Numbered from the stretch's first letter, positions 1 through 64,000 are shown. The stretch: DNA of 64,000 nt from Bilabrum cf. latius (GCA_965178125.1 OZ237764.1:248001-312000), one strand, 5' to 3'. Translations and numbers: made by a program. Notes: generated by a model from the sequence alone, not told the origin.

Positions 1-430
1 CAAGAGGCCAGCCAAGAAGCCCTCCAGTGAGGCAGGGGCAGGCGCACAGGACGTGCCCAAGCCGCTCGAGAGACCAGCCAAGAAGCCCTCCAGTGAGGCA
101 GGGGCAGGCGCACAGGACGTGCCCAAGCCGCCCAAGAGGCCAGCCAAGAAGCCCTCCAGTGAGGCAGGGGCAGGCGCACAGGACGTGCCCAAGCCGCTCA
201 AGAGGCCAGCCAAGAAGCCCTCCAGTGAGGCAGGGGCAGGCGCACAGGACGTGCCCAAGCCGCTCGAGAGACCAGCCAAGAAGCCCTCCAGTGAGGCAGG
301 GGCAGGCGCACAGGACGTGCCCAAGCCGCCCAAGAGGCCAGCCAAGAAGCCCTCCAGTGAGGCAGGGGCAGGCGCACAGGACGTGCCCAAGCCGCTCAAG
401 AGGCCAGCCAAGAAGCTACCCATTCGTGCC
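1..430 (+). repeat. 66-bp coding tandem repeat (KPSSEAGAGAQDVPKP[LE/PK/LK]RPAK), at least 6 copies, with 198-bp higher-order periodicity
   Basis: GCCAAGAAGC recurs at 11, 77, 143, 209, 275, 341 and 407. Variants cycle LE, PK, LK twice. Confidence 0.95.
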
Positions 431-3400
431 TCTAGTGAGGCAGGGATGGTTGCATTGGACGGTGGAACTCCGTTAGAATACCGTCAGGGCTCCAATGGTA
501 CTTGCAGTCAGGCAGGAGCTGATCTGCAAGGCGGGGCAGGTGCATCGAGGGCCAAGGAGACAGCCCACCGGCGTATCGGCATCGGATCATTGCGATTGGA
601 GTCTAGCCTCGGGATTGGTTTGGGCGCGTCAATGCCAGCCCAGAGGCGCATGAAATCACCGTCGTGCGAGAAGGAGTTGTGCGTAGCGCTGTCAACGGCA
701 GCAGCTGTGCACAGGCTCTCTGGTGCTCAGACGAGCACGTGCTCTGCCGTTATGCCAGGTCCATCAATTGTGCCTGCACCTGACAGGCGCATCGTGGACT
801 TGCACCCATTCGAGGACAGCTCCATTCCTGTGGGTTATGCGATGGCCCAAGATCGAGATGATTCCGCGATGCAGGAGATTGAGGCCGAGGCGCAACGCAG
901 ACATGCGCTACGAATGGAAGAATTGCTGGCAGCGCAGGTTCGGGAAGAGGAGCGACTTCGGGAGCTGCAGGATCTCGTTGCTGCTGCTAGACGTCAGGCC
1001 AGGGAGGACGAGCAGCGAGCAGTAGATTGCAAAGCAGCCGCTGAACAGCGTGCGCTGCAGCTACAGGATCGTTTGGAGGAACACGACGCGGCCGAGAGCA
1101 AGGCTTTGGCCCGGCAACAAGCTTTGCAGTTGACGATTCAGTCAATTGAGAAAAACGAAGAAGTCGCAAGAACACGGCGAGCAGCACTCGACGCCGAAAT
1201 AGCAGCGATTGCGGCCAAGGAGCGTGAAGCGGCAAGCAGGCTTTCTAGCGTCGAGATGCGAGCACGCATGGCAGAGAAGCGCGCACAGGAGGCCCAGCAA
1301 CGCACGGAAGCAGCGCAATTACGGATGAACGATGTACTGCGGCAAAAATCGGCTGCTTATCGAGCTGTTTCTGAGCAGCAGGCGAGACTTAAGCATCTTC
1401 AGGCCGAAGTGCGCCTACTGCAGGCCCAAAACGCCCAGGTTGAGCCCGCACCGACGGCGGCACCGACAACCACCATTGTGCCTGTCGAAGCGTCGGGCAG
1501 TCGCGAACAGCACGATCTTGCATCATGCGCGCCTGCCTCCGCAGCTTCTTCACAGCCGGATGAGACTCAATCCACATTGGCGATTAGAGACTTGTTGGAG
1601 GCACAACAGCGCGCGATTGATCAAGCCAGCAGGCTGCAGCGGTTGCGCGACAAGTCCCGAGCGTGCCTCATGCAGTCCACCCAGCTGCACCGCCAGAGCA
1701 TGCACAGTAGTCGGCAGCAACAAGCCGCCGCCCAAGCAATCCAAAGGGGAGGCGAGCTCGCAAGACTAGAGGCAGCGGCTGCTGCGAGGGTGCAAGAGGC
1801 AGAGTACCGCGAGTCGTTGGCTCGCTCAGCAGCTGACGAGGTCCGCAGGGCGCGCCGTGAGCAGCAAGCCTTCACGGAGGAGCAGCTGAGGCTGGTGGCC
1901 TCTCGAAAGCGAGCCGTGCACGAGCAAGAGGTGAAGCTACGATCTCGAGAACTCAGCGTGGCAGAGCGCGAGCGCGAGGTGGCCACGGCTGGCGTGCAAG
2001 CGTAGGCTGCACTGAAGGGGGCGCTGGAGCAGGCCGAGGCAGGGACGCAGACTCTCCGAGCTGAGCTGAAGCGAGAGGCAGAGCAGTCCAAAGAAGAGAT
2101 GGAGGCATAGCTGCAGGCCAAGTTGGACACAGAGCGATCAGCAGTGCTGCAAGAGCACCAAGCCAACGTGCGAGCGATGGAAGAGATGGAATCGAGTCTT
2201 GAGGTCAAGCTCGCAAAACTCAAGTCTACAGAGCTCGAAGTTCAGCGAGTTCGATAGGGCTTACACCAGCGCGAGAAGGAGCTGCAATAGCATCTTGAAT
2301 CTATAGCTAGTCGAGAGGCGCGCCTTGAGCAAGCTCTCGCTCGTCGCCGCAAGCTTGTCCGAAAGGTGCAGGGCGAGGTGGCTGTCTCGTACAGAGTCCC
2401 CGTCGCAATGCCAGCAGTAGCACCTTCCATTCGCAAGGATGCCAAATCCAAGGCTGCTTCCTCGAACAACTAGGGCGCGAACGGCCCTGCGCCGGTGGGA
2501 AGCCACTCGCCGCACGGGGACGATGTACATCACGGTCGAGCCATGGGCAACTTGGACCCCGTTGCAGAGGGCAGGCGGCGGCTGGAGGTGCTTGCAAAAT
2601 CCAGGGAGCACCAGCCTACGCGATCAAAGTTCAGGGAGCCCTCAGGCGATCGTGCACATTCGGGCAAGTACGGCAACCTTGTCACGAGCAGGGTCGCAGA
2701 GGGAACGCCTGATAGCATGAGAAAGGCCCATCCGAAGCGACGCGAGCAAACATCCCCTGGCAGCGAGTCCAGTCCACAGCACCAATGCGAGCCGAGGCGT
2801 GGCGTTCCTGCCGCTAGCCCTGCTGAAGTCGTTGCGGCACTTCGCAGCAAGAGGGAGCAGCAGCAGCAGCAGCAGCAGTATCAAGACACGGTCACATCAA
2901 GCCCACAGTCGGCTGGGTCCGCGTTCTGGCTGGCGCACGACAGCAGTGCAGGCAGCCCTATGCAACGCGCAGTCCGGAGGTCTCAGCAGGTCAGGCTTCT
3001 TCCCTCGCAGGCGCAGTAGGGGCCGCTAGTTCTAGTTCGGGACAGGCCACAGCCCCCACTGCAGCCAGATGAAGGGCATGCTTGGCAGCAAACGATCGCC
3101 ATTGCGGCCAACGAGTTGCCCCCACCGCCTCCGCCTGCCAGTATGCACAGGCATGCACACAGCGACCAAGCGTCACCAATGCAACAGCGCCCTGTGATAT
3201 CCCACTCGGCTCCGGGTCAAACTCTGCACACCGAAACAGACGCTGCCAGCCATGCGTGGACGACAGATGGTGCAAGCACCACGGCCACATCAATCCTAGA
3301 AGAGCACGTGACCCGCCTTGAGCAGGTTATCGCCGCTGGGGCGGCTGTCACAGGAGATGTGCCCATTGCCCAGCAGCAATCCCCAGCTAGTACGTCTGAG

Positions 3401-4312
3401 GCACACACTACGGCTGGAGGATCAGGATCCCCTCGGTTCCGCACCCTAAAGCAGCGGTAGAAGGCCCTGGACAGACGCATCAAGGAGCAGGAGGAAATAG
3501 GGAGGCGGCTGAATGCCAGCATGCCCGCCACTCGGCAGATCAGAGAGGCACAGGTAAGGCGCATGATTCTTGCTCGGCGCGAGCGGGAAGATGCTTTTCC
3601 CTCGCCCACGCCCATGTAGAGAGTTGGTGCCCGCGACAGGGAGGGCAGGTCATGGTCGCCAAGGTCCAGCTCTTTTTCTCGGAGCCGGTCTCGGCATGCG
3701 AGCAGGAGTCGAAGCAGGAGCAGCGGAAGGCATGATTCTAGCTAGAACGGCATGCTGGGGCCCTCGCCCTCATGGTAGAGGGCAAGGGGCAGGAGCAGGG
3801 ACAAGCCACGCGCCAGATCGAGGGCGAGCAGCAGCGGGCGATTTGTTGTGGATGCTAGCTCGCCGATGTCAGCGCAGGCAGCAAAGACCAGGAGCGGCAG
3901 CCGAGGCAGGGCATTGCCCGGGCCGCGGCAGCAGATTCCTCGGCACGAAGATACAAGGAAAGCTTCCGGTCTGGCTGCAAGTTAGGCTGAGCTGATTCGG
4001 CACACCCACGGGCTGGAAGTAGCTACGGCCCGCGTGGCAGCACAGGCGGCAACTCCATCGTACAAGAACCCGTGGCAGGCCCATCCCGCTGAGTCGCCCA
4101 ACTCGCCTTCACACGGTCTCAATGGAACTGCATCTGTGCGTACGCTGAGCCCATTGACGGCCGTGTCAAGCCCCCCACCCAGAGACGAGGTCACTCTGGT
4201 GTTGCCTGGCAAGGGGCAGGGAGCAGCGTCGGTTGCACTTGAGGGCCCTGGCGGTGCGATCGCTTCGTACTTTAATAAGAAGAAGCAGAAGAAGTGGCAC
4301 GATGTGAGGTGA
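1..4312 (+). CDS. Large coiled-coil/low-complexity hypothetical protein (5' end outside the window), read with TAG=Gln
   Basis: ORFs 53..2005, 2495..3019, 3116..3460 and 4034..4312 share one frame and are separated only by TAG. The coiled coil continues across them (VQA*AALKGALEQ..., EMEA*LQAKL..., EKELQ*HLES). First TGA is at 4310-4312. Confidence 0.8.
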
Positions 4313-6584: not shown

Positions 6585-7011
6585 GTTCAACAGAGAGGAA
6601 AATGTGAATGTAGGGCCGGTGTAGACTGCCAGAAGTTCCACCCAACGCCGACTGCGCTCCGACTCGGAGTTAGATTCGACGAGTCGAGCCAGTCCCCTGC
6701 GCAGCACATTTGTGTAACCTGTCTACCACAAGCAAGCACTCCTTCATCCACTGCACCGTGAGCTAAGGCTGGTAATATTGTTTGAATGCCCTGAAGCTTA
6801 AATTCAGCTGTTTAATGCCGTAGTCCAGTTAAATGTCTCGATCCATTTTTACACCCAACAGGATATGTGGCGCACCTGTTTACGAGTGGTTTAGCATCAG
6901 ACAGTGAACGGAATCACAGCAAGGCTAAGATTGTTTTAGATGCATTAGCTGACAGGAGCCGCAGTGTTTACTCTTGCCGTTTCGTTGACAGCCTGGTGGT
7001 TGGTTGCAAGA

Positions 7012-9396
7012 ATGGAGGCGTCGCCCCATTCCTCCGCATTGACCTCAACAATGCAGGTCTCACTGAGTGGCACGCAAACCATGGCTTCTGATGTAATGGA
7101 AAATATGTTCAGTGCAGCGATTCAGCTAGCGTCTATCCTTGGCGCAGCAGCGGCGACTCTCATCGCTACTGCAGGATTGGTCGATCCAGGGATCGTTAAA
7201 GGGGCGGCAGCGGGCCGAAAGTCCCACAAGAAGCACTTGAACGCCAGCACTGAGACGTCGCAGAGCTAGGCACATGTTGCTGGCCAGTAGCCGTTTGACC
7301 CTGGTGCGCTTGCCACGCTTCCTACCGAGGTTCGGAGGACGCTAGCGCAAAGCCTGCGAACGTGTGATCTGGAGGCTGGCTAGTTGCCGGCCGAACAAGC
7401 GCTGCTCGAGTCCACTGAGCCTGCATGCACCCAATCAGAAGTGGCCTCTATGACCACACTGGCTCATCAAAGCAGCGGTTGCAACCACGGTGGTTGCGAG
7501 ACGGACACCCGTGCCGCGGACACTGGAGAGGAGTCCGAACATTTGCCTGGGCGCGAGATGCAGGCACGGCGTGAAGCAGCGCGCAAGTTGGACTGGAGCA
7601 AGGTGCCTTACCACGTGCCCGAGTCGCTCCGTGGCCTCGTACTCTTCGACTCCTCTCGCCCTGACGCGCTCCTGATCGGAGAACACAAGTTCTGCCGCAC
7701 CTGCCGCATCTGGAGACCACCGAGAGCCGCACACGACACCGGGCTAGATGTGTGCGTGCTGCAGCACGACCACTACTGCACGCTCATCGGCAACTCGGTG
7801 GGCCTGTACAACCACCCGATCTTCGCCGCCGCTGCCGTGTGCACTACTGCTGCCACAGGTCTCACCATCGTGCTGCTGCTGCTGTACGCGGTGACAAACT
7901 TGTACACTGCATTTGGCTCTACTGGTAGTCTGGTTCCTTTGATGACTCCATCGTGGGCGACCATGGGATTTGGGCTGCTACTGCTGCTGTTTGGACGCCC
8001 ACTACTGATTGCAGGTCAGCCCATGGTCGCCGGTCTGTTCGCGATGGTAGCGGGCGTGGTTGGCTTGATCGTGGTGGGAGTGTCCATGAGTCTACGTGGC
8101 CTGGGCGTTCCCGTGGATCGGTTTATCACGGGATGCTTTGCGAGTAGAAGTGGAGCCACTGGACGATCGCAATGCGCGCAGGCGGGCTCAAACGATGGGA
8201 CTTGCAGACACGAACACGGTGCCAGCCACGGCAGCAACGAGGCTGGCGTGCTGCAGGACCTTGCCAAGCAATTCAATGTCATATCTGACCCTGAATACCC
8301 GAGGCGGCAGTTCAAGTTTTTATGGGCATATGCGACCAGGATTATCGCTCAGGTGCCAAACCGTTTGCTCCTGCAGGCATCTGCCTCGGCAGTATGCATG
8401 CTAGTGGCAGCTGTGACCCTCTTTCAAACGATGCCCATTGCCTCTACTGCTGGTGAAATCATGTCTGAGACTATGTTGGCTTTAAGAACGGGAGTGGTCG
8501 AAGCCTCTAGTGCAACTCGGTACAGCAGTGCCCGGCTCGTGTGGGTTCCAGCAGCGGCCAGGCCGATTGGCATCACCGAGACGGACCTGCTGATCGACGT
8601 GACTAATGCCAGCTCAGTTCGTGACACGCAGCGCAACATGTGGGCTGTTGTAGAGGAGAACAGCACGTTGATCTCAACGATTGAGCTGCATAAGGATCTA
8701 GTGAAGCTGCAGTGGCTTGATGGTGGCGAGCAACGGACAAAACACCAGACAGCGGTCCCACACGAATGGGCAATTGAGTCGGAATTGCGGATCCACGCAT
8801 CGAACAGCATCAAGAAGGGAGGACCAACACCTTTCGTCGCATTCCCGGTCCCCGTGGCAGGTCCCCAGGTCGTCATGCATGCTGGCGTGCAGTGGGCTAG
8901 CACACCGGGCAGACGCATCTTGCTCGTGTGTGGCGTTTTGGGAGCGCTTGCTATCCCTGTGCTGGCAGCAGTTGGTCTCAGCAATGTTCCAAATCCGTGT
9001 TCAAGCATCATCGCTGGGCTAGGTCTGGTCTCAGGGAACGCAAGGCAGGCCTAGCGAGCGAGGCGTGCCTCACGGTTCGGGGGCGTTGTACTGGGTGGTA
9101 GCCACGGATCCCCCTGCCTGCCATGCCCATCCACCACGTCGCAGACAAGGGACTTGGTTGAAGCTGCAGCTGCCATGGTGGGTCTCGTCCTAGGTTTGAG
9201 GATGATTCTGCCGAGGCTAACGTGCTTCGATATGGACGGGGTTCGTGGCCTGGACCAGTGCTCCCAGCTGGACGGAGGCTGGATGTGGGCCATGCTACTG
9301 CTACAGATGGGTGCGTTTGTTGCCAGCTTGCCTTTTGCACTGCAGCACCCGTGCATGGTTGCCCGTGGACAGGTCACACGAGACATGGGGGCTTGA
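7012..9396 (+). CDS. DHHC-family palmitoyltransferase (DHYC variant)
   Basis: DPGIV motif, then CRTCRIWRPPRAAH…CVLQHDHYCTLIGNSVGLYNH, TM segments and a C-terminal GQVTRD (TTxE-like). In-frame TAGs at 7267, 7288, 7381 and 9052; TGA at 9394-9396. Start codon uncertain. Confidence 0.8.
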
Positions 9397-9623: not shown

Positions 9624-10633
9624 TCAGTTGTCCTCCTTGCTCTCGATCGCACCTGCACCTCCAGCACCTCCCCCCACCGCGGGCCCGGCAAGCAGGTCGG
9701 CGGCCGGGGCCGAGCCAGGCACCACCTTCCCTCCCATCCACACGACTTTCTTGGGACCCCCCTCTTCGTCCTCATCCGGCTCCTCCTCGTCGTCCCCTGC
9801 TGCCTCCTCAGCGTACTCGCCCTCCTGCATATTGCCGTTGGGAAAGTAAAACACCCCTCGCCCGAACGGCCGGTTGCCCCTGAAGCTCCCGTGCCAGGAG
9901 GTGCCGTCCTTCAGGATCCATTTGCCCGTCTCGATGGAGCCCTGCTTCCACGTGCCCACCAACTAGCTGTCGTCGGAGGCATACACCAGGGCGCCGCGCC
10001 CGTGCCTCTTGCCGTCCTTCCAGGCCCCGCTGTACATGTCGCCGTTCGAGTACTTGTACGTCCCATCTCCGTTCGGGGCATCGTTCTCCCACATGCCGTG
10101 GTATTCATCTCCATTTGGAAACGTCATTCGGCCGATTCCGTGCTTCTTGCCCTCCTTGTACTCGCCCTCGAATGCGACCACGCGGCCTTCTGGAAGGGCA
10201 GCGGCATCTCCCTCCTCATTAACGGGCACCCAAGCATTCTTTGGCCCTTCTTCTCCGATCTCCAAACTCCAAACATACTTTCCAGGTCCATGCTTCTACT
10301 TTGCCTCGTTAAACGTTCCCTCAAACGTGTCGCCGTTCGGGTACGTGATCTTGGCCCTGCGACGTACAAAATGAAGGCTAGTATAGACAGGTGGGGACGA
10401 GTAGATTTCCATGCAAGCGCAAACAAGCTGAGGTCTGCTCACTTTCCGGGTTCTTTCACGTATGCAGCAGCGTCGGGCTCGTCGCCTTCCTTCAATGGTG
10501 CGCCTGAAGTCCACACGTAAGGTGCTCCCTGCGAAAGCGGTTTCATAGGGGGGAGACCATAAGGTTGAAAGGAAACTGAAGATTTACATTATTCGGGGTG
10601 CATGAAACACACCTGCTCGTCTTCATCAGCCAT
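9624..10633 (-). CDS. MORN-repeat protein, radial spoke head 1 (RSPH1)-like; 3 exons
   Basis: Repeated YxGxWxxGxxHGxG MORN units and an acidic C-terminus. In-frame TAGs at 10296 (NEAK*KHGPG) and 9963 (DDS*LVGTW). Introns at about 10612-10530 and 10442-10357. TGA stop. Confidence 0.8.
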
Positions 10634-40829: not shown

Positions 40830-41125
40830 GGATGCTGGCAGGCCCCCGGGCTAGCAAACTCACTTGCTTCCAGACGTTGACACTTTGCCGCAGTATGCCA
40901 TGTCAGACTTCATGTTCAAGCGCGCCGTGTTTGTTGCATGGGCGTCGATTGGTATCGTGTATGCATGCGATGCAGTTGCAGAGCGGTGGGAGCTGCGACG
41001 ACCAACCACTGGGTGGGCAGCAAACTACCTTGCTAACAGTGCGAGGCCACATTATACTAAAACAAAGGTATGCTATCATAAAGGGCGATCTTATTGCAGC
41101 TAGCCCCTTCAGGTGTCCAAGCACC

Positions 41126-45612: not shown

Positions 45613-46179
45613 TCAGACCCAGTCGAACGTCCGCAGTGAGGGAGCATGCGCGAGGAAGGCCTGGCGAGGCGTGAGGCGTTCAGCCTCTCGCCACCAGACC
45701 GCCACATAGTCCGCCTCTAGGACTTGTTGCCTGCTCCAGATCCGGGAGCGTGCTAGCCTTGCCGTTCCCTTCGCCCAGATGCGTTCTAGCACCTGAAGCT
45801 CCTTGCTGAGGGCGCAACGGCCCAGCGTTCCTGTCATCCACTCTCCGATGAACTAGTTCTCGGAGGGATTCAGTATGTGTCCGAGCGGGTGGGCTCGGAT
45901 TGCAAGGTCTCGGGCTGTTGGGCTGCCCGAGCTGAGTTGTTCAGCTACGCACAGTTGGCAGGACTACAACCCCTCGATGGCTCGTCCGAAGCTCTCATTG
46001 GCCCTCTGCTACAAGCGTCGGATTGCACGTCGGCACCGTTCTTGGAGTTGTTCGACAAGTGCTGAATCGACGCAACAAACCGGAAGAATACCTCGACCCG
46101 TTGCTCGCAAATTGTACAAGGCATTCACCCTAGCGCCCGGCGCTGATTCATTTTGTCGGTGCACTGGTTCCTATGGCAT
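45613..46179 (-). CDS. Possible small hypothetical protein, open only with TAG=Gln
   Basis: Frame …LVEQLQERCRRAIRRL**RANES…RTFDWV-TGA is open for about 189 codons when TAG is read through. No recognisable motif, and the candidate ATG overlaps the PDE6D start. Confidence 0.3.
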
Positions 46180-53700: not shown

Positions 53701-53979
53701 CTCGAGGTGCAGGCTCCCACCGTGGCGGCCGTGGCCAGCCGGCTGCTCAAGGCAAGCGGGCTGGCGGCCTGCGGGGGCACCGGCAGCATAAGCTCCACGC
53801 AGGCCAAGGCCTAGCCGTTGCTTTCGGGTACGTTTGCGAGTGGCGAGAGGGTGTTGGTGCGGACCATGCTGGTCAAGCCGCAGGGGACCTCGACGGTCAT
53901 GATGCGAGCCGCTGTGCGGTGCACCAACGCCGCCGTCAACCCGGCCGTGTCGCTGCTGATTCGATCATTGCAATCATGA
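50717..53979 (+). CDS. COPG: Coatomer subunit gamma; 3 exons (50717-50819, 50984-51189, 51286-53979)
   Basis: Motifs HLEKATVL*DCRVF, LRRLVYLFLKE, FRANAIRVL, LSDEFK, EFIEDCE, RYIYNRIILE, VRAAAV and DEVRDRA, plus an appendage domain. In-frame TAGs at 50771, 51025, 51064, 52168, 52714 and 53812. TGA at 53977-53979. Confidence 0.95.
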
Positions 53980-54317: not shown

Positions 54318-55702
54318 TCACGAGCGCCTGCCCAGGTTCAGCAGCTTGGCGAATGCCTCAGCGAATGCATCGAAGAACTTCTCCTCGTCCTCCGCGAATT
54401 CCTTGGTGATGGACAGGAACTTGGGGTCCCGGATGAGCTCCATGTCGGTCTCTAGCATCATGAGGGTGCCGTCGGGGGAGTTGTACTGCTCGTTCCCGTT
54501 GGGCAGCTTCCTCTTGATCCAGTTCCCTTCGCCCTTCATGAGCTCGACGAAGTATAGGTTGGACATGGTCGTGGGCGCGTTGGTCCAGGGCCCCTCGAAG
54601 CCGCTCGCGTCCGTGTGGCACCGTCCCAGGGTGTGGGCCCCGCTGAGGGCCACAATGTCCCGGTCGTTGAAGCCCATGCGGTAGAAGACGTCGCGGAGGT
54701 GGTCCGACTTCTTGGTCGCGTCTGGGAGGCGTCCATTGGGGGGGACCCTGGAGGGCTTGGGGTCATCCGACCTGCCCGGGGTCCACTTGATGGTGGGACC
54801 GCCCATGAACTCGATGGCCGTCACGCCTGCAAGGGTCCACAGGTCCGCGTAGGAAATGCCTGGGTGCTTGGCCTTGATCGGCTCCAGCCAGCCGCGGGCC
54901 GCCCCCAGCCCGGCGTTCGCGCCATCGGTCTTCTCGGGCTCGTACCGCATGGTGGCGCCGTCGGAGCCACCGGTGTTGGTCTTCTTGTCATAGGTGCCCG
55001 AGGCATGCCACGCAAGGCGTACGAGAGTGGGTCCCTTGTTGTCATCGTCCTCGAGCAAAGTCTCGATGTCCTTGCGCACAGCCTTGATGTCCACGCTCGG
55101 CTTGGGGGCTGCTGCCGGCTTGGAGGACTCGCCGCGGCCCAGCAGGCCGTCAAACATGCCCTCGTTGTACGCGTACTCTGCGCCAGCTCCCACAGCGCAC
55201 CCAATTAGGAACTGCGAGTTGCATGAGCAAGGCAGCTTGGTGATAGGAATCATGCGGGACGGAAAGTTTCGCCGGTTTCTGAACGCCCAGGATAGGCAAC
55301 AAAAAATGCCTCGAATCGTGCAAATCAATGGCAAGTCGAGGGTTTTCAGTGTATTTGATTTACCATGGGCATACTCACGGTGGCGAAGCCGCCTCCGCCG
55401 CCGCCTCCACCGCCTTGCGAAGCCTCCGTTGCCAAGAACCGGGAAGCCGTTCGGCTCGCTGCTGGCACTGCGCAAGGGAAATCAGTCCATGCGTGCCAGA
55501 GAATTACGCATAAGGTGCAGATACAGCATCAACATCGAACTTATTGCACCTAGCGCATGGCTGTATGCCGTGGACTAATTGATGGAAGGAAAGATCGCAG
55601 CTGACGGGGCCACGTATCATCGCCTCGCAGCAGATTGTCTTCCAACTCACGGCGCAGAGTTCGAAGACTTGCCATTGACCTCATAACAGCACGGCGCATC
55701 AT
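54318..55702 (-). CDS. CCP1: Mitochondrial cytochrome c peroxidase (class I heme peroxidase); 3 exons
   Basis: GPTLVRLAWHASGTYD, ISYADLW, GRLPDA, VALSGAHTLGRCH and GFEGPWT. Spliced Arg-rich transit peptide MMRRAVMRSMASLRTLRLPAASRTASRF followed by a TM anchor. TGA stop. Confidence 0.9.
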
Positions 55703-55854: not shown

Positions 55855-58800
55855 TCACAAACGCTTAGTTGCCGAGTTCTAAGCGTTCCCCGGGAAGTTG
55901 TAGAGCGTGTCGAGGTGCCCGCAGTCCCCCAGCAGCCCGGGCCCATAGTCCCCGTCAGAGCTCCCGTACTGCCGCATGCAGGAGCACTTGCCCGTGGACC
56001 GGTCGCACACACCCCGTCTCGAGCACTCATCGGCATACTTCGTTCCCTTGACCTCTTCTAGGACGGTGACGCCACCCCCTTGCAGCAGTCCATCGTGGCT
56101 CCGCATCAGCTGTGGATCCCCGTGGGACCCTAAGAGTGTGACGAGTATCTTCTTGCTGGTGCCGCAGACCCGCTAGTCTCGTCGATCGTTTGCAGTGTAC
56201 GTGTCGACGTCATCTGTGGCTGGGTCTGGCACCAGCTCCACCCGCACCCGCGGCAGCGACACGAGCTTCTGCAGCTCGCCCTCGAGGCTCGGCACGGTGG
56301 GAGCGGCGTTGTGCCTGTCCAGGATGAAGGCGTCGTGGGAAATGCTCGAGGTCAAGACCCCTTCGAATTCAAGCTGGAAGGACCCTCCCGTGGCCGTGCA
56401 GCTGATCGACTGCACCTCGTGCTGCCGCTCGTCCCACGCCCCGCGCCTGGGGTCCTCGATCGCAGGACACGTCCACTCGTTGCAGCCGTACCCCGAACGC
56501 TTGGAGGCCGTCTGTCCCCGGGGACCGCCGTACGCCCATCCCGAGCATTGGCATGCTCTCCACATGTCGGCGTCCCAGCCAGTGTACTGGGGTGCGGGCC
56601 GGATGAGGTTGCCCTCTGCGTCCAGGCCGACTGCAGCCAGCTGGCCCATGGTCTTGCAAGACGTGGGGTTGGCGTACCGACTGCTGTCCTCGTCCTGCTG
56701 CCTGCTTACCGCTGCCTGACAGGCCGAGCTAGAGTCGTCCTGGTTGCCGGGGCACGGGCCCAGGGAACAGTCGACCGCGTCTCGGTATCCCCTGCGGCAG
56801 AGGCACCGTCCCGACTGACCGTCGCACCTGCCCCACTCGCTGCATGCAGCCGGCTAGTGAGCCGTGTCTCGCCGCCACGCCTCGTCGAACCAAGCCGTGT
56901 TGGAAGGGCACGTGATCGCCTCGCAAGCGGCCCCGCTGAATCCCTGGCTGCATGTGCACACGTAGTTTGGAGCACCGCTACACGTCCCGTGGCCCGAGCA
57001 CTCGCCCGCTGAGGATGACGGGCACCCGCTTACCAGCCCGTTGCTGTACCCGCAGTTGTGCACTCCGAGCTTCTCATCCGCAGGCTACGATTCGATGTCA
57101 CCGCCGGCGTTGTTGCTGGCTCCGAACCACTCGGGGCCGTCGGCCGCGACTCCCTTGAAGCACCGGCACGAGCCAGATTCGCACGTGCCCCGGTTGCTGC
57201 ACTCGCTCAGAACCCTAGTTCCGGTTCGCACCTTGAACCCAAACTCACCTCTAGACTCTTCACCATCGGCAAGGATCTGGAACGTGGGGGTCGTACCGGA
57301 GGTGGACTGCAGCGTCTGAGCCGTGTCGTCCTGCGGGTCCACGGTCAGTGCCGGCACATCGATCGGGTTGTGTGTGAAAGTGATGGCGGTGGTGACACCG
57401 TCAGCGTCGCAGAGAGAGGTGCCCCCCGCCATGTTCACCGATACGGTGGGAACGAATTCAAGACCCTCAAGGGCCTCTCGGATATCGGATGCCGTGGCAT
57501 CGTGCTGTATGGCAGCCGTTTGCTCCCGCAGCAGGCTCAGTTTGACGGAGCCGGTGCAAGTGGCTGCGCAAGTACACTCCAGGATTTGCACCTCGTTCAC
57601 TTGGGCAAACCCGCTGCCATCCGCCAGCGTTGCAACTCGCACGGTGACGCCCCCATCTCGCGGCACTGATTGCAGGCAGCTGAGGGTATTTGGCAGCACG
57701 CTGAGTTGCGCCAGGTTCTGGTTCTGCTCGATGAACGTCACGGTCCAGTCGAACCCGCCCACCCAGTCATCACTCCCCGAGGGAGCATACACGGCCCGCG
57801 CAACGTCCACCTGGCCCACCTCACTGTTTGGGAAGAGCCGCTCCAGAGCCAGCTCGATATCCGCTGCGCTGGAATCCCAGGCCAGCGCCTGGGTGGTAAG
57901 GTTCCTGCCATTGAGCGTCATGGACAGTTTGAAGGTGCCGTTCAGAAACGTGCCTTGCTGGTGGTTGTCTGTGACTGTGCACGTGGCAGTGGCAGGGACC
58001 AGGGTGGGCGCGCACTCCAACGCCGCTCGGTTTCCGCGCGCTCGAGCCCCTCCGCTGAACGTGATGACCCAGTTCAACCCAGCCATGCCGGTGTAGTCGA
58101 TGGCAACATCGATGGTCGTACCGGAGAGGCCATCAAGGGCCTCCAGAGCGGTCTTGATCTGCGTGGGGGTAGAGCTGATTGACAGAGCGCCGGTGCTGTC
58201 GCTGCCCTGACTCGTCAGGCCCTCGCCGGTCTGCTGCTCCGGAGTGGGGTAACTTGGTGTGGCAGCCGAGCTAGAATCGTCGAAGCTCAGCACCACGGAT
58301 CCAGACACCTCCACGCCCGCAGTCACCTCGGACACGGCAATAGTCCAAGTAGATGGGACGTGCGGCAGCCGGCCCGACGCTGTCATGAGAGGGATGTTAC
58401 CGCCCACCTCGACCCCGCTGAATGTGACGAGGAACTCGTAGCCGGTGCCCCCCCCGCCGCTCGAGTAGAGGGAGGCGGACACCTGCACGTCGTCGATGTT
58501 TGGCATGTTCTCGAGCTGCCACTTCATGTTTATGCCAGCTTCGGCTGCCTTCTCTGCGGCTGTGCCCGATGTTGCGATGCCGTTTGGCCCGATGCCGATC
58601 TCGATCGCGTCCGAGGTGGCCGCCACGGTGGTCTTGCAGAGGGTGCAGCCGGTGCTCGTGTCTAGCCCAAGAAAGAGGACCCCCTCAGGATAGCCCGAGG
58701 TGGTGGTCACTCGAATGCGCTGCACCTCGTCCGTGTTGATGTTGCCGCCGAGAGCCACGACCTGCACCTCGTCCTGGTGCGTGCAATCGGTGCGGATGCG

Positions 58801-60910
58801 CTGCGTCTCGAATTGCTTGCTGTCGGCCACGATCGCGACGGACGCGCCCGCAGTGCTGCCTCCAGCGGGATCCCCATCCAGCAGCATGTTCGTTGTGGTG
58901 GTCATGGTCGGAAGGTTCTCCGGGATGCCCCTGAAGGTGATTCCCCACTCATAGCCCCCGGACCAGTCGTCTGCTGGGGTAGCCGGGTACCGCGTGCGGG
59001 TGACCTGCACGTTTCCTATCGCCGTATCTGTGGCTTGGATCGCCGCAGACACTTCTGAAGGCGAGGCATTCCAGTCCAGTGCGCTGGTCAGGAGCGAGTT
59101 GCCGTCATATGTGATCCCGAGCCTGAACGTACCTGACATGAAGGTCCCGTGCTGCACCGTGGACGTCGCGCAGTGCGTCGCAGCATCCGCAGCAAAGCCA
59201 CCGGCCGCGTTTGTCGCCGGTGCGATCGTCGTGCGAGCATCAGCCGCATCAATAGCAAGCAGGGGGCGGTTGCCTCGCTGCCGGGCACCGCTGGCAAACG
59301 TTACCCGGTATGCAATGCCTGGCCCGCCCGTGTGCACCACCTCGACGGCCAGTCCGCCCACCCCGATCCCAGGCAAGCCCTCCAGGGCAGTCTTGACCTC
59401 TGACGCGGTTGCCCCCACAGTGACAACGGCTGTGCCCGCGCCTCCGGTCGTGGTTACAGCGCTATCATCCTGGTCAGCAATGGGTGGCCACTGGTACTGG
59501 TCTCCGTCAGTGAAGCTCACGCTCGTGGAATCGTCATACGACAGCACCAGGTCGCCCTGCACCTCATCACCGTCCTGCGACACGACCGAATCCAAAACTA
59601 CATCCGGTGTACCGGCGCTGGAGGACGCAGTCGAGACGTCTACCTGCAGCTGGGGCACGTTGCCGCCGACCTCGAGACCGCCAAAGGTCACGGATAGCAC
59701 GATGCCCTCCCCGCCCGTGCTGGTGGGCGCGCCAGTCACAGTGACGGTGTCAATGTTGGCGCACTGCAGCAACTCGGTCTGTAGGGTGCTTGCTGTTGCG
59801 CTGGCACGGGCGGCTGCTGTGGCCGACGCAGAGTCGATGGTGACCGACGGCCGCGTGCATGCCTGCCGCGTGGATTCTGGGCACAGCGCGCATGCAGGCG
59901 CCGACGTGTCGAACGAAACCGACATCGTCCCGCTCAGGACTCCGCTTGCTCGGTCCAGTATAGTGATGGTCTGTACTTCGTCAGCATTCACTGCCGTCCC
60001 GCCGCCGATGCTGATCAGCTGGACTTCGTCCCTGTGAGTGACGGTTGACCGGAGTGTCTGCCTCTCCTGGTTGCCGTTGTACAGAGGATCTGAGCCCATG
60101 GGACACTGCTTTTCGGAGCAGTCGTACCCTTTCCAGCCCTCGTAGCACACGCAGCCGGTCAGCATGTCTGCTTCCCACTCGTCATACCTCAGCGACCGGA
60201 ATAGGGTCACCCCGTCCTGCCGCTGAGCTGCTTCCCTCATCGTGAGGCACTCACCGTGCCCGTTGCAGGCACCCTGCCTGCCTTGAATTCCGGGGCATTC
60301 CATGCGCTCGCATGCATCTCCTATGAATCCGGTGTCGCAGTTGCAGACCCCTGACGCATAGTCGCATTGCCCGCGTCCAGAGCAAGTTGCTTGTGAGGTC
60401 CTTGCAGCCCCGTTGGCATCCGTGAAGCTTGACCAAGGGCGACCTTTCGGGCATTCTTCTGCGATAAAAATCGTATAAACTAGTAGCCGACATGAACGCT
60501 AGTGGCCCTAGACTGTGGTTTTCGCGGGTAATGCGAAATCGCGGCGTCTCACGAAAGGAGCAATCAGCAGCTCCACCTGTGAATGGCACGTGGCAGGCGC
60601 ACACCTGCTCTAAATCTTCCGAGCACCTGCCATTGTATGGAGCATTGCACATATTTGGACAAGTGCTTGATGCAGCCCTCTGCTTTGCAGTAATACTCGT
60701 TGGTTCGAAGTTTAGCTCGTCCCTAAGGCCTTCGATCCCAAGCTGAATATTATACAGCTCAGTAAACGGAGCTAGTAGGCCAGAATCAACTTTTGATTGC
60801 GATTGCACGCATTCAAGCAGTCCGGCCATAGCTAGACATCTTGCTAGTAGTAGGAGCTTGCCAGGAGAGCGCTAGTCGGAACGCAGCCGTGCTCGCATCC
60901 TAGGTTTCAT
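55855..60910 (-). CDS. Secreted EGF/tenascin-like (mastigoneme-type) protein with repeated 'EVQ' beta-modules; 2 exons
   Basis: Repeated CSxRGxCDxxxGxCxC and W[DE]ADM…C motifs. Intron at about 60552-60459. TAGs at 60872, 57085, 56854, 56173 and 55879 are read through; TGA at 55855. Start codon approximate. Confidence 0.8.
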
Positions 60911-61174: not shown

Positions 61175-62449
61175 TCATCCCTTCTTCTTCATCTTCTCGC
61201 TCCACTGCTTGAACCAGTTGCCCTTTTTCGGGTCAGCGCCGGCATCTGGCTCTGACGAGGATCCTGCGCCCATCCAGTGGTTCCCATCCGTTGATTTTCC
61301 ATCCAGCGAGGCAAGCACGATTCCAAAGGCCTGCAGCGGGCTCAGAGGGTGCCTCACATCCATCGTGAACTCGTCCCTATCCACCTTGCCGAACTGGAGC
61401 AAGGTGGCATCTCCCGCCTCATCGCTCGTCATCTGGAAGTTCTTCACGGATGACTGGGTTACCCTACCCTTGAAATCGAGCACGTGGGACTTGAGCCTCT
61501 CGTCCCACTGCGGCCTCTTGTTCCTCAGGTACATCACGGCCCCCTCCTCCCGCGCCGCCGCGGCCGCCAGCGAGTCCTCTTCCTCCCTTGGCCTGAACAC
61601 GGTCGCGGACCCTGCGGCGTTCACCCTCGGCAGCGCGGCCGCCATGCGCCCCGGACCCATCTTGTCGTAGTCGAACCCGACGCAGGCCAGTTCCCTGCGG
61701 AGCGACGCATCGGTGACCGCGTCCTATGGGGCCATGCCCTGATCGTAGAGCGTGTACACGGAGCCCGACCAGTTCGCCCTAAGCTTGCCGACCACCTTGT
61801 CAGAGGCGCGGTCCGGCTCCGCCTGCATGCACAGCAAATAATTGCTTGTGGTGGTGCCGGCGCGCTGCCTGGAAGACATGAGGAAGCGGCCCGTGTGCTC
61901 CTCGTACAGAGTGTACAAGGGGTATCCGTACAGCATGGGCCGCTTGCGGACGATCAGGCAGCGGAGCGTGCCCTGGCTCGGGTCCACGGGCCGAACCAAG
62001 AAAGGACGGAGCGTTGATACGTCGGTAGGAGGGGCCTGCAGAGCGCCCCGGGGCCCGCCGCTCGGAGTTCGCTTCATGACAGCCGAATCAGAGGCACCTC
62101 CCGTGGCTGATCCAGCACCCGCAGGCCCGCCCGAGCCCGCGCCGCTTGCAGCGGGCCCTGCGATCGTACCGGGAACCATAGCGGATTTGGCATTGAAGGC
62201 CCGGAACTCTCTTTCCATCTCGGCATCCTCAAGTTCTGCGTCCGCTGCCATCAGCGTTGCGCTGGGAGCCGCCCCAGCTGCGTGTCTCGCCAAAGAACTG
62301 CTGGCCCGTGGCTGATCCATCGCCGCACTTGACGCTGCAGCCGAGGTGCTCACTGCGTCTTGAGCTGGAGCGGCTTCGTCGTCTGATGAGTCATCGACTT
62401 CAGCCATCATGGACATTTTTAAATGGTCACTCCGTCCAGACGCTGCCAT
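61175..62449 (-). CDS. Tubby-like protein
   Basis: LRCLIVR, NYLL, VVGKLRANWSGSVYTLYD, RRELA, LRNKRPQW, LDFKGRVTQSSVKNFQ and LQFGKVDRDEFTMD…PLSPLQAFGIVLASLDGK. One TAG at 61724 inside the domain. TGA stop. Confidence 0.92.
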
Positions 62450-62810
62450 CACCTCGTTTGACTTGCGAACGCCCCTTCGGTTGTAAATAAGGTAATAATC
62501 AGTAGTATTGTACTAAAAACTGCAAGATTCTGCCTTGGGAGGGCCTGCCAGTGTCCATCAGCCATCCGGATTTCACGAACGGTTCCGTCTGCGAATGCGC
62601 GGCGATAATTTGTTACGTGGCATTCCGGACAAACAAGACACGGACCACCCCACCGAAGGAGGGCATCCTTGCGATAGCATAACGCCCGTCGGTCTCTGTC
62701 CAAATCCTTAGTAGTTGAACTGAGTGTTGTTTGTGTCTGTCTGTGAGAGGATCGCGTAGCGGTCGTCTTCTATTGCAGCGTGGTAAGCGGTTTTTCCCCC
62801 GCAAGGAGTT

Positions 62811-64000
62811 ATGGCGGGAACCGGACAGCAAGGAAGTGCCTGGGCTGGTGGTGGACTTGGTAGTGCGGGAGGTGGAATAGAATCTGTATTTGGATCAGAC
62901 ACGGCGGGCCTCAGCTCACTGCTCGGTGGTGGAAGCTTTGGCGCCGATGCCGGTGGGGATGCGCAAGGCTGGGATAGCGCACCTGGTGGCGCAGCGGGCG
63001 CTACAACAGCCGGCTCGTCGGTTGTAGGTGGTATTGGCGAGTCATCTCACCAATCTAGTGCCGCCACGGCAAATTCTGGCCCGTCTGGAGATCAGAAGTC
63101 GAACGGCGAAAGCACGCCGACAGCTGGCGAAGACGATTTTGAGCCCTTGGCAATGCCCATGGCATGCGAGCCTATAGGAGAGGATGAAATGCTTAGCATG
63201 CACATGCCAACAACGTTCCCGGACGAGATGCCGTGGTTCGATGGGGTGATGACGCGCGATTCGATTGCGCCGTACTTGCGAGCACGACCATCCGACGACG
63301 AGGTGAGAATATGTTTGCACCCTGGCGAGTTTTAGAACGCATGCTCCGTCTCTCTTATGCCATTAAGTTCTTCTGCCGATGACGAAGCAAGTATTGACGA
63401 TCGATTCTGAGCCCCGCAAGGCCGTGAACGATGCAACTACCTCCTACTCATTCCGAGGCCTGTCTCTTTCTTTACGGAGCGGCTTTGAACCGTCCAATGC
63501 AGAGTCATTGTACCTAACTCCCTGATTAATTGCATCCTGCTGCTCTGTGCACCGCAGATTGCCAAGCATTGGAAGACCAAGCCGAAGAAAACGTACGCCC
63601 CCCCGGGGGCCATGGGCAGCGGGGGCGGAGGGGGCTCCTCCTCTAGTAGGTGGGGCAACTCGGCGCTGGGACGGTCCACGTCTGGGGCCTCGGCGTCTTC
63701 GACGGCTGCATAGCACGGCAGTGCTGGCGGCGCTGGATCCGGGTCTACAGTGTCAGAGCAGCCCAAGTGGCAGCAGGCCACTCGAGCCAACAAGCCCAAG
63801 GGAGGCGGGGGCGGATCCTGGAGGGACCAGTCGGGCGCGTCCACCGGCGTATTTGCGCGACGGGACGAAAGCCGCCAGGACAAGGATGACGCCAAGAACG
63901 ACGACACGTTCGGGGGGGACGCGCTGGGCGGCGGGTCTGACGATGCCACCTTCGGGGGCGGGGGCACCCTGGGCGGGTTCGACCTGGGTGACCTCAGCAA
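62811..64000 (+). CDS. Gly/Ser-rich protein, possibly with a GIGYF-like N-terminus (3' end outside the window)
   Basis: Exon 62811-63303, a GTGAGA…CGCAG intron, then an exon from about 63559 that stays open through a TAG. IGEDEMLSMH weakly resembles the GIGYF YxREEML motif. Confidence 0.55.

What the first reader, a model, noticed from the sequence alone, without database searches (positions are those of the whole stretch)
1..64000. Non-standard nuclear genetic code: UAG encodes glutamine
Seen in sequence: most genes are broken only by TAG, never by frameshifts, and the frame and protein family continue afterwards (Sec16, gamma-COP, Tubby, DHHC, RSPH1-like, sulfotransferase, METTL26-like). 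TAG occurs where Gln is expected, at a conserved gamma-COP position and inside CAG/GGCCAG repeats. Established knowledge: nuclear UAR-to-Gln recoding is known from ciliates, diplomonads, oxymonads and some green algae. Inference: this looks like a stramenopile-type flagellate, a group for which I know of no well-established nuclear stop-codon reassignment, so it may be an independent and undescribed origin.
Basis: partly seen in the sequence, partly recalled or inferred. Interest (0 to 1): 0.95.

Follow-up and report, generated by a model that had tools for sequence, protein, structure and literature searches.

The report
Stop codon UAG encodes glutamine here
This is nuclear DNA of a flagellate related to Cafeteria (a bicosoecid stramenopile) whose genes use the stop codon UAG as a glutamine codon, a change I could not find reported for any stramenopile.

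Summary
Reading TAG as sense raises the longest open frames from 1137, 810 and 731 codons to 2757, 1618, 1436 and 1434; reading TAA or TGA as sense does not. In 12 confident coding sequences (11,976 codons) there are 91 in-frame TAG, 0 TAA and 0 TGA. Pfam and PDB homology continues across TAGs in Sec16, gamma-COP, Tubby, DUF938, an RSPH1-like protein and an EGF-rich protein. Contigs of runs X5 and X7 carry GT..AG-bounded splice joints. They are colinear with the window, with no differing letter, across 10 TAG codons. So TAG is neither spliced out nor edited.

Glutamine is the best reading. One TAG sits in a gamma-COP column that is Q in 83 of 89 homologues. Three of 4 TAGs in the EGF protein are Q in a 93%-identical relative. 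That relative's gene is split by a stop exactly at a query CAG. Summed column log-odds are Q +11.8, next M -9.7.

TAA is not sense. Every homology-anchored gene ends in TGA. A gamma-COP tree places the organism beside Cafeteria. Seven literature searches found no stramenopile precedent. The tRNA and eRF1 could not be examined.

The parts
50717..53979 (+). gamma-COP gene. Exons run to 50818, 50983-51189 and 51286-53979; it ends in TGA. Six in-frame TAGs at 50771-73, 51025-27, 51064-66, 52168-70, 52714-16 and 53812-14.
   Evidence: Pfam Adaptin_N 2.2e-78, COP-gamma_platf and Coatomer_g_Cpla. PDB 5a1u_E 3e-145, aligned across TAGs. Splice joints in X5/X7 contigs. Columns: aa49 Q in 83/89; aa62 Q in 32/92 (plurality); aa19 K 20, Q 15 of 57; aa398 M/L in 110 of 118 (rest I/V); aa946 variable, with Q in Cafeteria and P0003. 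The C-terminus lies 2-5 residues beyond those of 115 of 118 homologues.
55855..60711 (-). EGF/teneurin-like repeat protein; intron 60459-60552; ends in TGA. TAGs in the cDNA-covered CDS at 57085-87, 56854-56, 56173-75 and 55879-81. Query CAG at 57811-13 is where the relative has a stop.
   Evidence: Pfam EGF_2 and EGF_Teneurin. An X5 contig covers 55651-60458 with 0 other letters. The 93%-identical relative P0213|P0214 has Q, Q, Q and E at the four TAGs and is split at query Q967; P0215 also has Q at aa1513.
10921..19194 (-). Sec16 gene: a 2757-codon open frame with 48 TAG; ends in TGA.
   Evidence: Pfam Sec16 mid-region (aa 1763-1843) and TPR_Sec16 (aa 2095-2340, 3.5e-28) lie downstream of 41 TAGs. 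It holds 16 tandem units each with GAC TAG CAG CAG, and a poly-Q tract that mixes CAG, CAA and TAG. No transcript contigs were laid here.
61175..62557 (-). Tubby-family gene; TAG at 61724-26 inside the Tub domain; ends in TGA.
   Evidence: Pfam Tub 2.3e-61. PDB 1s31_A 5.8e-45; the TAG aligns with Q of tubby in 3 of 3 printed alignments. The column is variable in 150 representatives: K 43, E 28, D 17, Q 2 of 146. An X5 contig covers 61101-62545 with 0 other letters.
39414..40859 (-). DUF938 methyltransferase-like plus ACT domain gene; TAG at 40725-27 inside DUF938; ends in TGA. Query CAG at 39597-99 is where the relative's ORF ends.
   Evidence: Pfam DUF938 1e-51 and ACT_7 8.4e-18. The TAG aligns with Q in P0122 (50% identical) and with M, A and V in three others. 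P0121 (82% identical) ends immediately before query Q421.
9624..10583 (-). RSPH1-like MORN-repeat gene (radial spoke head); TAGs at 10296-98 and 9963-65.
   Evidence: PDB 8wzb_F (radial spoke head 1 homolog) 5.9e-32. The TAG at aa207 aligns with K in the 3 RSPH1 chains shown.
6802..9396 (+). DHHC palmitoyltransferase gene; 7 TAG in the open frame, none inside the DHHC domain; ends in TGA.
   Evidence: Pfam DHHC 8.2e-19 at aa 293-382. TAG positions.
28220..32524 (-). Sulfotransferase-domain gene: 1434-codon frame with 11 TAG, including (GGC TAG)x4; ends in TGA.
   Evidence: Pfam Sulfotransfer_1 3.6e-11 and Sulfotransfer_3 1.7e-10. Codons.
2..4312 (+). Coiled-coil protein gene, 5' end cut by the window; 11 TAG; ends in TGA.
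   Evidence: A 1436-codon frame is open only if TAG is sense. No Pfam family.
42729..45350 (-). Secreted-protein-like gene in two in-frame blocks joined by the window's only 'internal' TAA (44343-44345).
   Evidence: The TAA lies in AA|GTAAGT, a consensus splice donor, followed about 160 nt later by a pyrimidine tract and CAG. It is read as intronic by inference; no Pfam family.
46150..46980 (+). GMP-PDE-delta/UNC119-like gene with three introns, no TAG in the CDS; the in-frame TGA stop falls within the model's last exon stretch (46776-47200), at a coordinate not computed.
   Evidence: Pfam GMP_PDE_delta 1.3e-13 and 6.3e-06 in two frames. Joints 46243>46335, 46424>46528 and 46653>46776 in X5/X7. 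Spliced translation.
54318..55481 (-). Ascorbate-peroxidase-like gene, no TAG; ends in TGA.
   Evidence: Pfam peroxidase 8.7e-50.
47318..50190 (-). Coiled-coil gene: 810-codon exon without TAG, and two 5' introns.
   Evidence: ORF. CT..AC joints 49683>49830 and 50064>50190 in X5/X7.

Best explanation
The window is nuclear DNA of a heterotrophic stramenopile of the bicosoecid lineage, sister to the Cafeteria group in a gamma-COP tree. Its nuclear code reads UAG as glutamine. About 13% of glutamine codons in confident genes are TAG. UGA is the terminator of every gene whose C-terminus could be anchored. UAA never occurs in frame and is most likely still a stop, so this is the 'UAG only' variant (the TAG-to-Gln code that a listed abstract calls genetic code 15). 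Shown: TAG is in frame in conserved genes, is kept in transcript-derived contigs, and corresponds to Gln in homologues and close relatives. Also shown: at least one related organism in public data has stops where this one has CAG. Inferred, not shown: decoding by a tRNA-Gln with anticodon CUA, one anticodon change away from tRNA-Gln(CUG). Also inferred: an eRF1 that has lost UAG recognition but keeps UGA and UAA, and an origin after the split from the standard-code Cafeteria lineage.
For: (1) ORF lengths jump only when TAG is sense: 2757/1618/1436/1434 against 1137/810/731. At the out-of-frame TGA+TAA rate of 1.9% per codon (455 in 23,952 codons), a 2757-codon frame free of both has a chance of about e^-53. 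(2) In frame, TAG 91, TAA 0, TGA 0 in 11,976 codons. (3) Homology continues across TAGs: the Sec16 domains lie after 41 TAGs; gamma-COP, Tub and RSPH1 align to solved structures on both sides of TAGs. (4) Of the 15 joints listed for the four laid runs, 11 have GT..AG or CT..AC ends that match the gene strand. All 11 are in X5, 10 of them also in X7, and none in X1 or X8. X5 contigs cover 51286-52680, 52824-53943, 55651-60458 and 61101-62545 with 0 other letters, plus gamma-COP exon 2 through its joints. That spans 10 TAG codons. (5) Amino acid, distant homologues: gamma-COP aa49 column is Q in 83/89; aa62 has Q as plurality, 32/92. (6) Amino acid, close relatives: EGF TAGs are Q, Q, Q and E in the 93%-identical relative, and Q in a 68% relative. 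DUF938 TAG is Q in the nearest covering relative. (7) Reverse direction: the relative's gene is split into P0213|P0214 exactly at query CAG 57811-13, and P0121 ends just before query CAG 39597-99. (8) Summed log2-odds over 13 columns: Q +11.8, M -9.7, K -13.9. (9) The sequence (GGC CAG)3 GGC TAG GGC CAG, and poly-Q tracts mixing CAG, CAA and TAG. A neighbour-context likelihood ranks Q first by 5.3 nats. (10) TAA: from the CAA:CAG ratio of 135:476, about 26 in-frame TAA would be expected if TAA were Gln too; 0 were seen. The one candidate sits in a GTAAGT donor. (11) The gamma-COP TGA lies 2-5 residues past the C-termini of 115 of 118 homologues. The EGF TGA is at the same position as the relative's stop.
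Against: Several TAG columns are not Gln. Gamma-COP aa398 is M/L in 110 of 118 homologues (I/V in the rest) and S in the 79% relative. The Tub column has K 43, E 28 and only Q 2 of 146. RSPH1 aa207 is K. EGF aa1611 is E in the relative. These are variable or lineage-specific positions, but only about six columns actually point to Q. The run types of X5 and X7 are not on record (labelled 'RNA?', and for X5 'probably DNA'); that they are cDNA is my inference from the joints. No transcript contigs were laid on Sec16, DHHC or the sulfotransferase. No tRNA gene lies in the window and no genome is held, so the decoding machinery was not seen. No verified gene ends in TAA, so its role as a stop is inferred from its absence in frame. 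The identity of the relatives' stop codons is unknown because their DNA could not be fetched.
Confidence: 0.85

Rival explanations
1. Both UAA and UAG encode glutamine and UGA is the sole stop (the ciliate/Hexamita/dasyclad type, NCBI table 6). On this reading TAA is simply rare in a genome of about 60% GC.
For: All homology-anchored genes end in TGA: gamma-COP, Tub, DUF938-ACT, APX, EGF, Sec16, DHHC, sulfotransferase and GMP-PDE-delta-like. No verified gene is shown to stop at TAA. Seventeen of 19 long ORFs end in TGA.
Against: There are 0 in-frame TAA in 11,976 codons, against about 26 expected from the CAA:CAG ratio of 135:476 applied to 91 TAG. TGA-only ORFs extend the confident genes by almost nothing, for example Sec16 from 2757 to 2760 codons. 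The single internal TAA is part of a GTAAGT splice donor. By the out-of-frame ratio of TGA 393 to TAA 62, a run of TGA ends is not unusual.
Confidence: 0.05
2. UAG is ambiguous: it is read as Gln inside genes but still terminates translation near mRNA 3' ends. This would resemble the context-dependent stop/sense codes that searches list for Condylostoma and karyorelict ciliates and, for UAA, Blastocrithidia.
For: This cannot be excluded from one window, where only about a dozen gene ends are anchored. EGF has a TAG 7 codons before its TGA (55879-81), at a place where the relative has E rather than Q.
Against: None of the anchored genes needs TAG as its terminator. Gamma-COP and EGF end at TGA at the position expected from homologues. 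After the late EGF TAG, 5 of 7 residues match the relative.
Confidence: 0.06
3. UAG is sense but encodes another amino acid, such as Lys, Glu or Leu, as in the UAG reassignments to other amino acids reported for other lineages.
For: K is the commonest residue in the Tub column (43 of 146), in gamma-COP aa19 (20 of 57) and in RSPH1 aa207. E stands at EGF aa1611 in the relative. M/L stand at gamma-COP aa398.
Against: Summed log2-odds are Q +11.8, M -9.7, K -13.9, E -18.8, L -17.5. The one near-invariant column is Q in 83/89. Three of 4 TAGs are Q in a 93%-identical orthologue, and two stops in relatives fall on query CAG. TAG is embedded in CAG repeats.
Confidence: 0.03
4. There is no code change. 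The TAGs reflect pseudogenes, assembly errors, small introns, or U-to-C RNA editing that restores CAG.
For: Some raw-ORF TAGs do lie in introns (EGF ORF codons 68 and 71) or in probable 5' leaders.
Against: Only one of the three stops is affected, and no frameshift was needed to read any of the long frames. Contigs of four runs agree with the window at every covered TAG. Spliced X5/X7 contigs keep the TAGs with 0 other letters. A 93% relative conserves the flanking protein sequence.
Confidence: 0.01

Closest known systems
UAG-only reassignment to glutamine: Iotanema spirale (fornicate), Protocruzia tuzeti and two phyllopharyngean ciliate lineages, as listed in the Discussion of PMC11687900 (passages read). 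A listed abstract calls TAG-to-Gln 'genetic code 15' (PMC9523058, abstract start only).
   Same: UAG is sense and aligns with Gln. UAA is not used as sense. UGA terminates.
   Different: The host is a bicosoecid-related stramenopile, a supergroup lineage not named in those passages. The genome is GC-rich (0.57-0.66 per 4 kb). The tRNA and eRF1 basis was not seen here.
UAR-to-Gln codes: many ciliates, Ulvophyceae, Hexamita, Streblomastix strix and Amoeboaphelidium protococcarum (PMC11687900 Discussion; Streblomastix also in PMC10120064).
   Same: A stop of the UAR pair becomes Gln, one transition away from CAG. Q-rich and repeat tracts absorb the new codon.
   Different: Here TAA is absent in frame: 0 of 11,976 codons against about 26 expected. 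The two UAR codons are therefore uncoupled.
UAG reassigned to other amino acids while UAA stays a stop: Leu in an uncultured rhizarian and in a ciliate, Ser in Scotinosphaera (PMC11687900 Discussion).
   Same: UAG and UAA are uncoupled.
   Different: The amino acid differs. Leu and Ser score -17.5 and -21.7 against +11.8 for Gln.
Cafeteria roenbergensis and other bicosoecids. That they use the standard nuclear code is my recollection, consistent with the full-length 965-aa gamma-COP P0005 predicted from its genome.
   Same: Nearest named relatives by the gamma-COP tree. Flagellar genes are present: RSPH1-like, Tubby, UNC119/PDE-delta-like.
   Different: Gamma-COP is only 42% identical. In-frame TAGs occur here and in the 76-93% relatives found in public run assemblies.

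Membership tests
Nuclear code with UAG = Gln only (table-15 type) | UAG occurs in frame inside conserved protein-coding genes | tested here: met
   There are 91 TAG in 11,976 confident codons. TAGs lie inside the Adaptin_N, Coatomer_g_Cpla, Tub, DUF938 and MORN regions.
Nuclear code with UAG = Gln only (table-15 type) | UAG positions correspond to Gln in homologues | tested here: met
   Summed log2-odds are Q +11.8, and all 19 other amino acids are negative. Gamma-COP aa49 is Q in 83/89. Three of 4 TAGs are Q in the 93% relative. Against: 5 of 13 columns favour K, M/L or E, and a sixth (gamma-COP aa580) has only 3 aligned residues, none of them Q.
Nuclear code with UAG = Gln only (table-15 type) | UAG is present in mature mRNA (not edited, not spliced out) | tested here: met
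   Spliced contigs of X5/X7 cover 10 TAG codons with 0 other letters. Caveat: these are contigs, not raw reads, and the run type is inferred from 11 canonical joints.
Nuclear code with UAG = Gln only (table-15 type) | UAA is not a sense codon | tested here: met
   0 in-frame TAA against about 26 expected. The only internal TAA is in a GTAAGT donor.
Nuclear code with UAG = Gln only (table-15 type) | UAG is no longer used as a terminator | tested here: inconclusive
   All anchored genes end in TGA, but only about a dozen gene ends are in the window.
Nuclear code with UAG = Gln only (table-15 type) | A tRNA-Gln with anticodon CUA | not testable with these tools
   0 tRNA genes by ARAGORN and 0 Rfam matches in the window. 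No genome is held.
Nuclear code with UAG = Gln only (table-15 type) | eRF1 with altered stop-codon recognition | not testable with these tools
   eRF1 is not in the window and no assembly is available.
Nuclear code with UAG = Gln only (table-15 type) | Peptides with Gln at UAG | not testable with these tools
   No proteomic data are at hand.
UAR = Gln code (table-6 type) | UAA as well as UAG in frame in coding sequences | tested here: not met
   0 TAA in 11,976 codons. TGA-only ORFs do not extend the genes.
Stramenopiles, Bicosoecida | Phylogenetic placement with bicosoecids | tested here: met
   Single-gene FastTree of gamma-COP: 29 sequences, 889 columns. These are 28 of the 118 aligned homologues, namely the 16 with an organism or project name from a source plus 12 unnamed top hits. 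The query groups with Cafeteria roenbergensis, P0003 and P0004 with support 1.0, and with Bicosoecida sp. CB-2014 with support 1.0. One gene only; 18S and phylogenomics were not possible.

The most novel reading that the evidence does not exclude
This may be the first nuclear stop-codon reassignment in the stramenopiles. It would be an independent origin of UAG-to-Gln, with UAA kept as a stop, in a GC-rich bicosoecid lineage. It would have arisen after the split from the standard-code Cafeteria group. It is shared by at least two related organisms, because relatives at 76-93% protein identity have stops where this genome has CAG. If so, it gives a free-living, apparently cultured flagellate in which to ask how eRF1 tells UAG from UAA.
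Probability: 0.55. Interest if true: 0.8.

Novelty: new member of a known kind. Interest (0 to 1): 0.72.

Why it matters
Nuclear stop-codon reassignments are rare. The passages read in PMC11687900 describe the uncoupling of UAG from UAA as virtually unknown until a few recent cases. A stramenopile case would add an independent origin in a major eukaryotic group that had none in the literature I could search. It occurs in a GC-rich genome, where the AT-pressure arguments I recall being made for ciliates do not obviously apply. The practical consequences are immediate. Standard-code gene callers cut this organism's genes into fragments. The relative's EGF gene is stored as two proteins (P0213, P0214), its gamma-COP as a 516-aa piece (P0001), and its DUF938 gene as a 356-aa piece (P0121). 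Proteomes, phylogenomic matrices and metagenome bins from this lineage will therefore be systematically truncated unless they are translated with TAG as Gln.

Tried and rejected
- TGA or TAA as the reassigned codon: rejected by ORF lengths and by TGA-only ORFs.
- tRNA search in the window: ARAGORN found 0 genes and Rfam gave 0 matches at gathering scores. This says nothing about the genome.
- Whole genome: none is held, so no Codetta-type scan, tRNA-Gln(CUA) search or eRF1 analysis was possible.
- The look-up of sequencing runs: no RNA holder is listed. Run types are guesses. I inferred cDNA for X5 and X7 only from the joints seen.
- Strain polymorphism between TAG and CAG: none was seen. The 16 'other letter' rows lie at 45652-45976 and 54140-54703, not at TAG codons.
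- Four of the 15 listed joints have non-canonical ends and short sides of 21-40 letters. I did not treat them as introns.
- Tub column as evidence for Q: rejected. It is Q in mammalian tubby but only 2 of 146 in representatives.
- Gamma-COP aa398 and aa946 as 'conserved Q': rejected.
- Sec16 repeat units as a test of TAG/CAG alternation: TAG is fixed in all 16 units, so they are uninformative on identity.
- Six-frame Pfam scans of 32525-36096 (both strands), 4313-6804 (minus strand) and 62558-63999 (plus strand): no families. Of 25 long ORFs scanned, 16 had no family and one had only a sub-threshold match.
- Literature: seven searches and passages of PMC10120064, PMC11412368 and PMC13768787 gave no stramenopile nuclear code change. 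Supplements were not consulted because they are closed.

Full report
**What the window is.** The window is 64 kb with GC 0.57-0.66 per 4-kb bin. It holds no tRNA gene and no Rfam match, and no whole genome is held for it.

It is dense with eukaryotic genes:
- DHHC palmitoyltransferase, Sec16, a sulfotransferase-domain protein and a DUF938+ACT protein.
- Gamma-COP, an ascorbate-peroxidase-like protein, an EGF/teneurin-like protein and a Tubby-family protein.
- A GMP-PDE-delta/UNC119-like protein and an RSPH1-like MORN protein.

Of the 25 long ORFs scanned, 8 matched families above Pfam's cut-offs, 1 matched only below the cut-off, and 16 matched nothing.

**The observation.** I compared stop-to-stop open frames under different codes.
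- Standard code: the longest are 1137, 810 and 731 codons.
- TAG as sense: 2757, 1618, 1436, 1434, 900 and 864 codons.
- TAA as sense: no change to the top ten.
- TGA as sense: many middling frames, none above 960.

The 19 long TAG-sense frames hold 115 TAG; 17 end in TGA and 2 in TAA.

I then counted stops in 12 confident coding sequences trimmed to homology- or cDNA-supported parts, 11,976 codons in all.
- In frame: TAG 91, TAA 0, TGA 0.
- In the two other frames of the same DNA: TAG 162, TAA 62, TGA 393.

So TAG is as common in frame as out of frame (0.76% against 0.68% per frame), while the other two stops are fully excluded. At the out-of-frame TGA+TAA rate of 1.9% per codon, the 2757-codon Sec16 frame has a chance of about e^-53. 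The Sec16 Pfam domains (aa 1763-1843 and 2095-2340) lie downstream of 41 TAGs. Gamma-COP, Tubby and RSPH1 align to solved structures on both sides of TAGs.

**Transcripts.** Eighteen public runs were listed; none is on record as RNA. I laid X1, X5, X7 and X8 on 44001-64000.
- Of the 15 joints listed, 11 have GT..AG ends (plus-strand genes) or CT..AC ends (minus-strand genes).
- All 11 are in X5 contigs, 10 of them also in X7, and none in X1 or X8, whose contigs are colinear with the window.
- The skipped stretches are 91-255 nt long.
- Depth is flat in X1 and varies widely between genes in X5 and X7.

From this I infer that the X5 and X7 contigs are assembled cDNA. The run type itself is only the tool's guess.

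X5 contigs match the window with 0 other letters over 51286-52680, 52824-53943, 55651-60458 and 61101-62545. One contig also carries gamma-COP exon 2 (50983-51189) between its two joints. These stretches contain 10 TAG codons: four in gamma-COP, four in the EGF gene and two in the Tubby frame. No 'other letter' row falls on a TAG. So TAG is kept in the transcript, neither edited to CAG nor spliced out.

Genes do have introns, and a few raw-ORF TAGs are intronic (EGF ORF codons 68 and 71 lie in intron 60459-60552).

**Which amino acid: distant homologues.** In the spliced gamma-COP model, aligned with 118 homologues:
- TAG at 51025-27 lies in a column that is Q in 83 of 89 non-gap sequences.
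- TAG at 51064-66 has Q as the plurality, 32 of 92.
- TAG at 50771-73 has K 20 and Q 15 of 57.
- TAG at 53812-14 is variable, but Q in Cafeteria and in P0003.
- TAG at 52168-70 is M/L in 110 of 118 (I/V in the rest), and S in the 79% relative.

The Tub TAG is Q in mammalian tubby, but its column among 150 representatives is K 43, E 28, D 17, and Q only 2 of 146. RSPH1 aa207 is K in the RSPH1 chains.

**Which amino acid: close relatives.** These carry the most weight.
- The EGF protein has a 93%-identical orthologue stored as two proteins, P0213 and P0214. Query TAGs at aa 1209, 1286 and 1513 are Q in it, and aa 1611 is E. A 68% relative, P0215, also has Q at aa 1513.
- The P0213/P0214 break falls exactly on query Q967, which is a CAG codon.
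- P0121, 82% identical to the DUF938 protein, ends immediately before query Q421, also a CAG.
- The DUF938 TAG is Q in P0122, the nearest relative that covers it, and M, A and V in three others.

**Which amino acid: overall.** Summing log-odds over the 13 columns gives Q +11.8 bits; every other amino acid is negative (M -9.7, K -13.9).

Two further observations agree:
- TAG sits inside (GGC CAG)n in gamma-COP and inside a CAG/CAA poly-Q tract in Sec16, and forms (GGC TAG)x4 in the sulfotransferase gene.
- After collapsing repeats, a neighbour-context likelihood ranks Q first by 5.3 nats.

TAG makes up 91 of 702 glutamine codons, or 13%.

**TAA and termination.** If TAA were also Gln, the CAA:CAG ratio of 135:476 predicts about 26 in-frame TAA; none is seen. 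TGA-only frames barely extend the confident genes. The one internal TAA (44343-45) reads AA|GTAAGT, a consensus splice donor, with a pyrimidine tract and CAG about 160 nt downstream.

Every gene whose end can be anchored stops at TGA. Gamma-COP ends 2-5 residues beyond the C-termini of 115 of 118 homologues. The EGF protein ends at the same position as its relative. I therefore read the code as UAG-only. That UAA is still a stop is inferred, since no verified gene here ends in it. An ambiguous role for UAG near 3' ends cannot be excluded from a dozen gene ends.

**Who it is.** The best named gamma-COP hits are Cafeteria roenbergensis (42%), Bicosoecida sp. CB-2014, Aurantiochytrium and Aplanochytrium.

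I built a FastTree of 29 sequences and 889 columns. It used 28 of the 118 aligned homologues, namely the 16 that a source gives an organism or project name plus 12 unnamed top hits. It puts the query with Cafeteria roenbergensis, P0003 and P0004 (support 1.0), inside a clade with Bicosoecida sp. CB-2014 (support 1.0). Labyrinthulomycetes, oomycetes and ochrophytes fall outside.

This is one gene only. The flagellar genes (RSPH1-like, Tubby, UNC119/PDE-delta-like) fit a flagellate.

**How it most likely works.** This part is inferred. A tRNA-Gln(CUA), one anticodon change away from tRNA-Gln(CUG), would decode UAG. An eRF1 would no longer recognise UAG but would keep UGA and UAA. TAG codons would then arise from CAG by C-to-T transitions, most freely in disordered, Q-rich and repeat regions. 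None of the machinery could be examined.

**Comparison and novelty.** The code variant itself is known. The Discussion of PMC11687900 (passages read) lists:
- UAG-only to Gln in Iotanema spirale, Protocruzia tuzeti and phyllopharyngean ciliates.
- UAR to Gln in ciliates, Ulvophyceae, Hexamita, Streblomastix and Amoeboaphelidium.
- UAG to Leu or Ser in other lineages.

No stramenopile is named there. Seven full-text searches and passages of three further papers found no nuclear reassignment in a stramenopile.

The library lacks most subscription journals, and supplements were closed. The runs that hold this DNA date from 2025, so a description may exist or be in preparation.

I rate this a new member of a known kind: probably a new, independent origin in a new major lineage. 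It appears shared by at least two related organisms, because the relatives' genes are broken where this genome has CAG.

**Verdict.**
- TAG is a sense codon: about 0.97.
- It encodes Gln with UAA not reassigned: about 0.85.
- It is undescribed for stramenopiles: about 0.55.
- Interest: 0.72.

Noticed in passing
window 46243-46776, 49683-50190, 50818-51286, 55211-55651, 60458-60553, 63300-63556: There are spliceosomal introns of 91-255 nt with GT..AG ends, seen as joints in X5/X7 contigs only. The genome is gene-dense but not intron-free. Seventeen more joints were not shown by the tool.
   Followed up: partly
window 55211-55651 (minus strand): The X5 contig that carries the EGF gene continues past its TGA (55855) through two further CT..AC joints (55467>55651 and 55211>55379), into the region of the peroxidase gene's 5' end. 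These are either 3'-UTR introns or an assembly merge of two neighbouring transcripts.
   Followed up: no
window about 17890-18750 (minus strand; Sec16 aa 148-435): Sixteen near-identical 54-nt tandem units encode GD(TAG)QQAPVEEA(V/A)(S/G)E(A/D)VG(S/P). TAG is fixed in every unit.
   Followed up: partly
window 2-480 (plus strand): The 5'-truncated coiled-coil gene starts with about six tandem copies of a 23-residue unit (KRPAKKPSSEAGAGAQDVPKP-type).
   Followed up: no
window 47336-48002 and 45335-46001: Summed contig depth jumps in all four runs. In X1 it reaches 5153 and 504 against a flat 16-28 in most other bins. Many loose ends occur there, some made of GCT repeats. These are low-complexity or dispersed repeats shared with other loci or organisms. 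The variant letters at 45652-45976 belong to them.
   Followed up: no
window 28220-32524 (minus strand): The sulfotransferase match covers only profile positions 3-116 of 255, at the N-terminus of a 1434-codon frame. The rest of the frame is low-complexity, with a five-fold GDGDGAGLGAEE-type repeat. I did not test whether the second half of the domain lies at the C-terminus, or whether the gene has introns.
   Followed up: no
window 4628-6202 (minus strand): A cysteine-rich open frame holds long runs of C-x-x-C-type motifs. It has no Pfam family, and a 597-codon frame lies on the opposite strand. Which strand is coding is not settled.
   Followed up: no
proteins P0001, P0121, P0213, P0214 (public run assemblies): A related organism (76-93% protein identity) is present in public data. 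Its orthologues are stored as fragments: 516, 356, 830 and 651 aa. Two fragment ends fall exactly on Gln codons of this window, which suggests the same code in that organism.
   Followed up: partly
window 39414-40859 (minus strand): DUF938 (a methyltransferase-like domain) is fused to a C-terminal A9CJY8-like_N + ACT_7 module. In the other hits that module is attached to GNAT acetyltransferases or nitrilases, mostly in sequences with prokaryote-style names.
   Followed up: no
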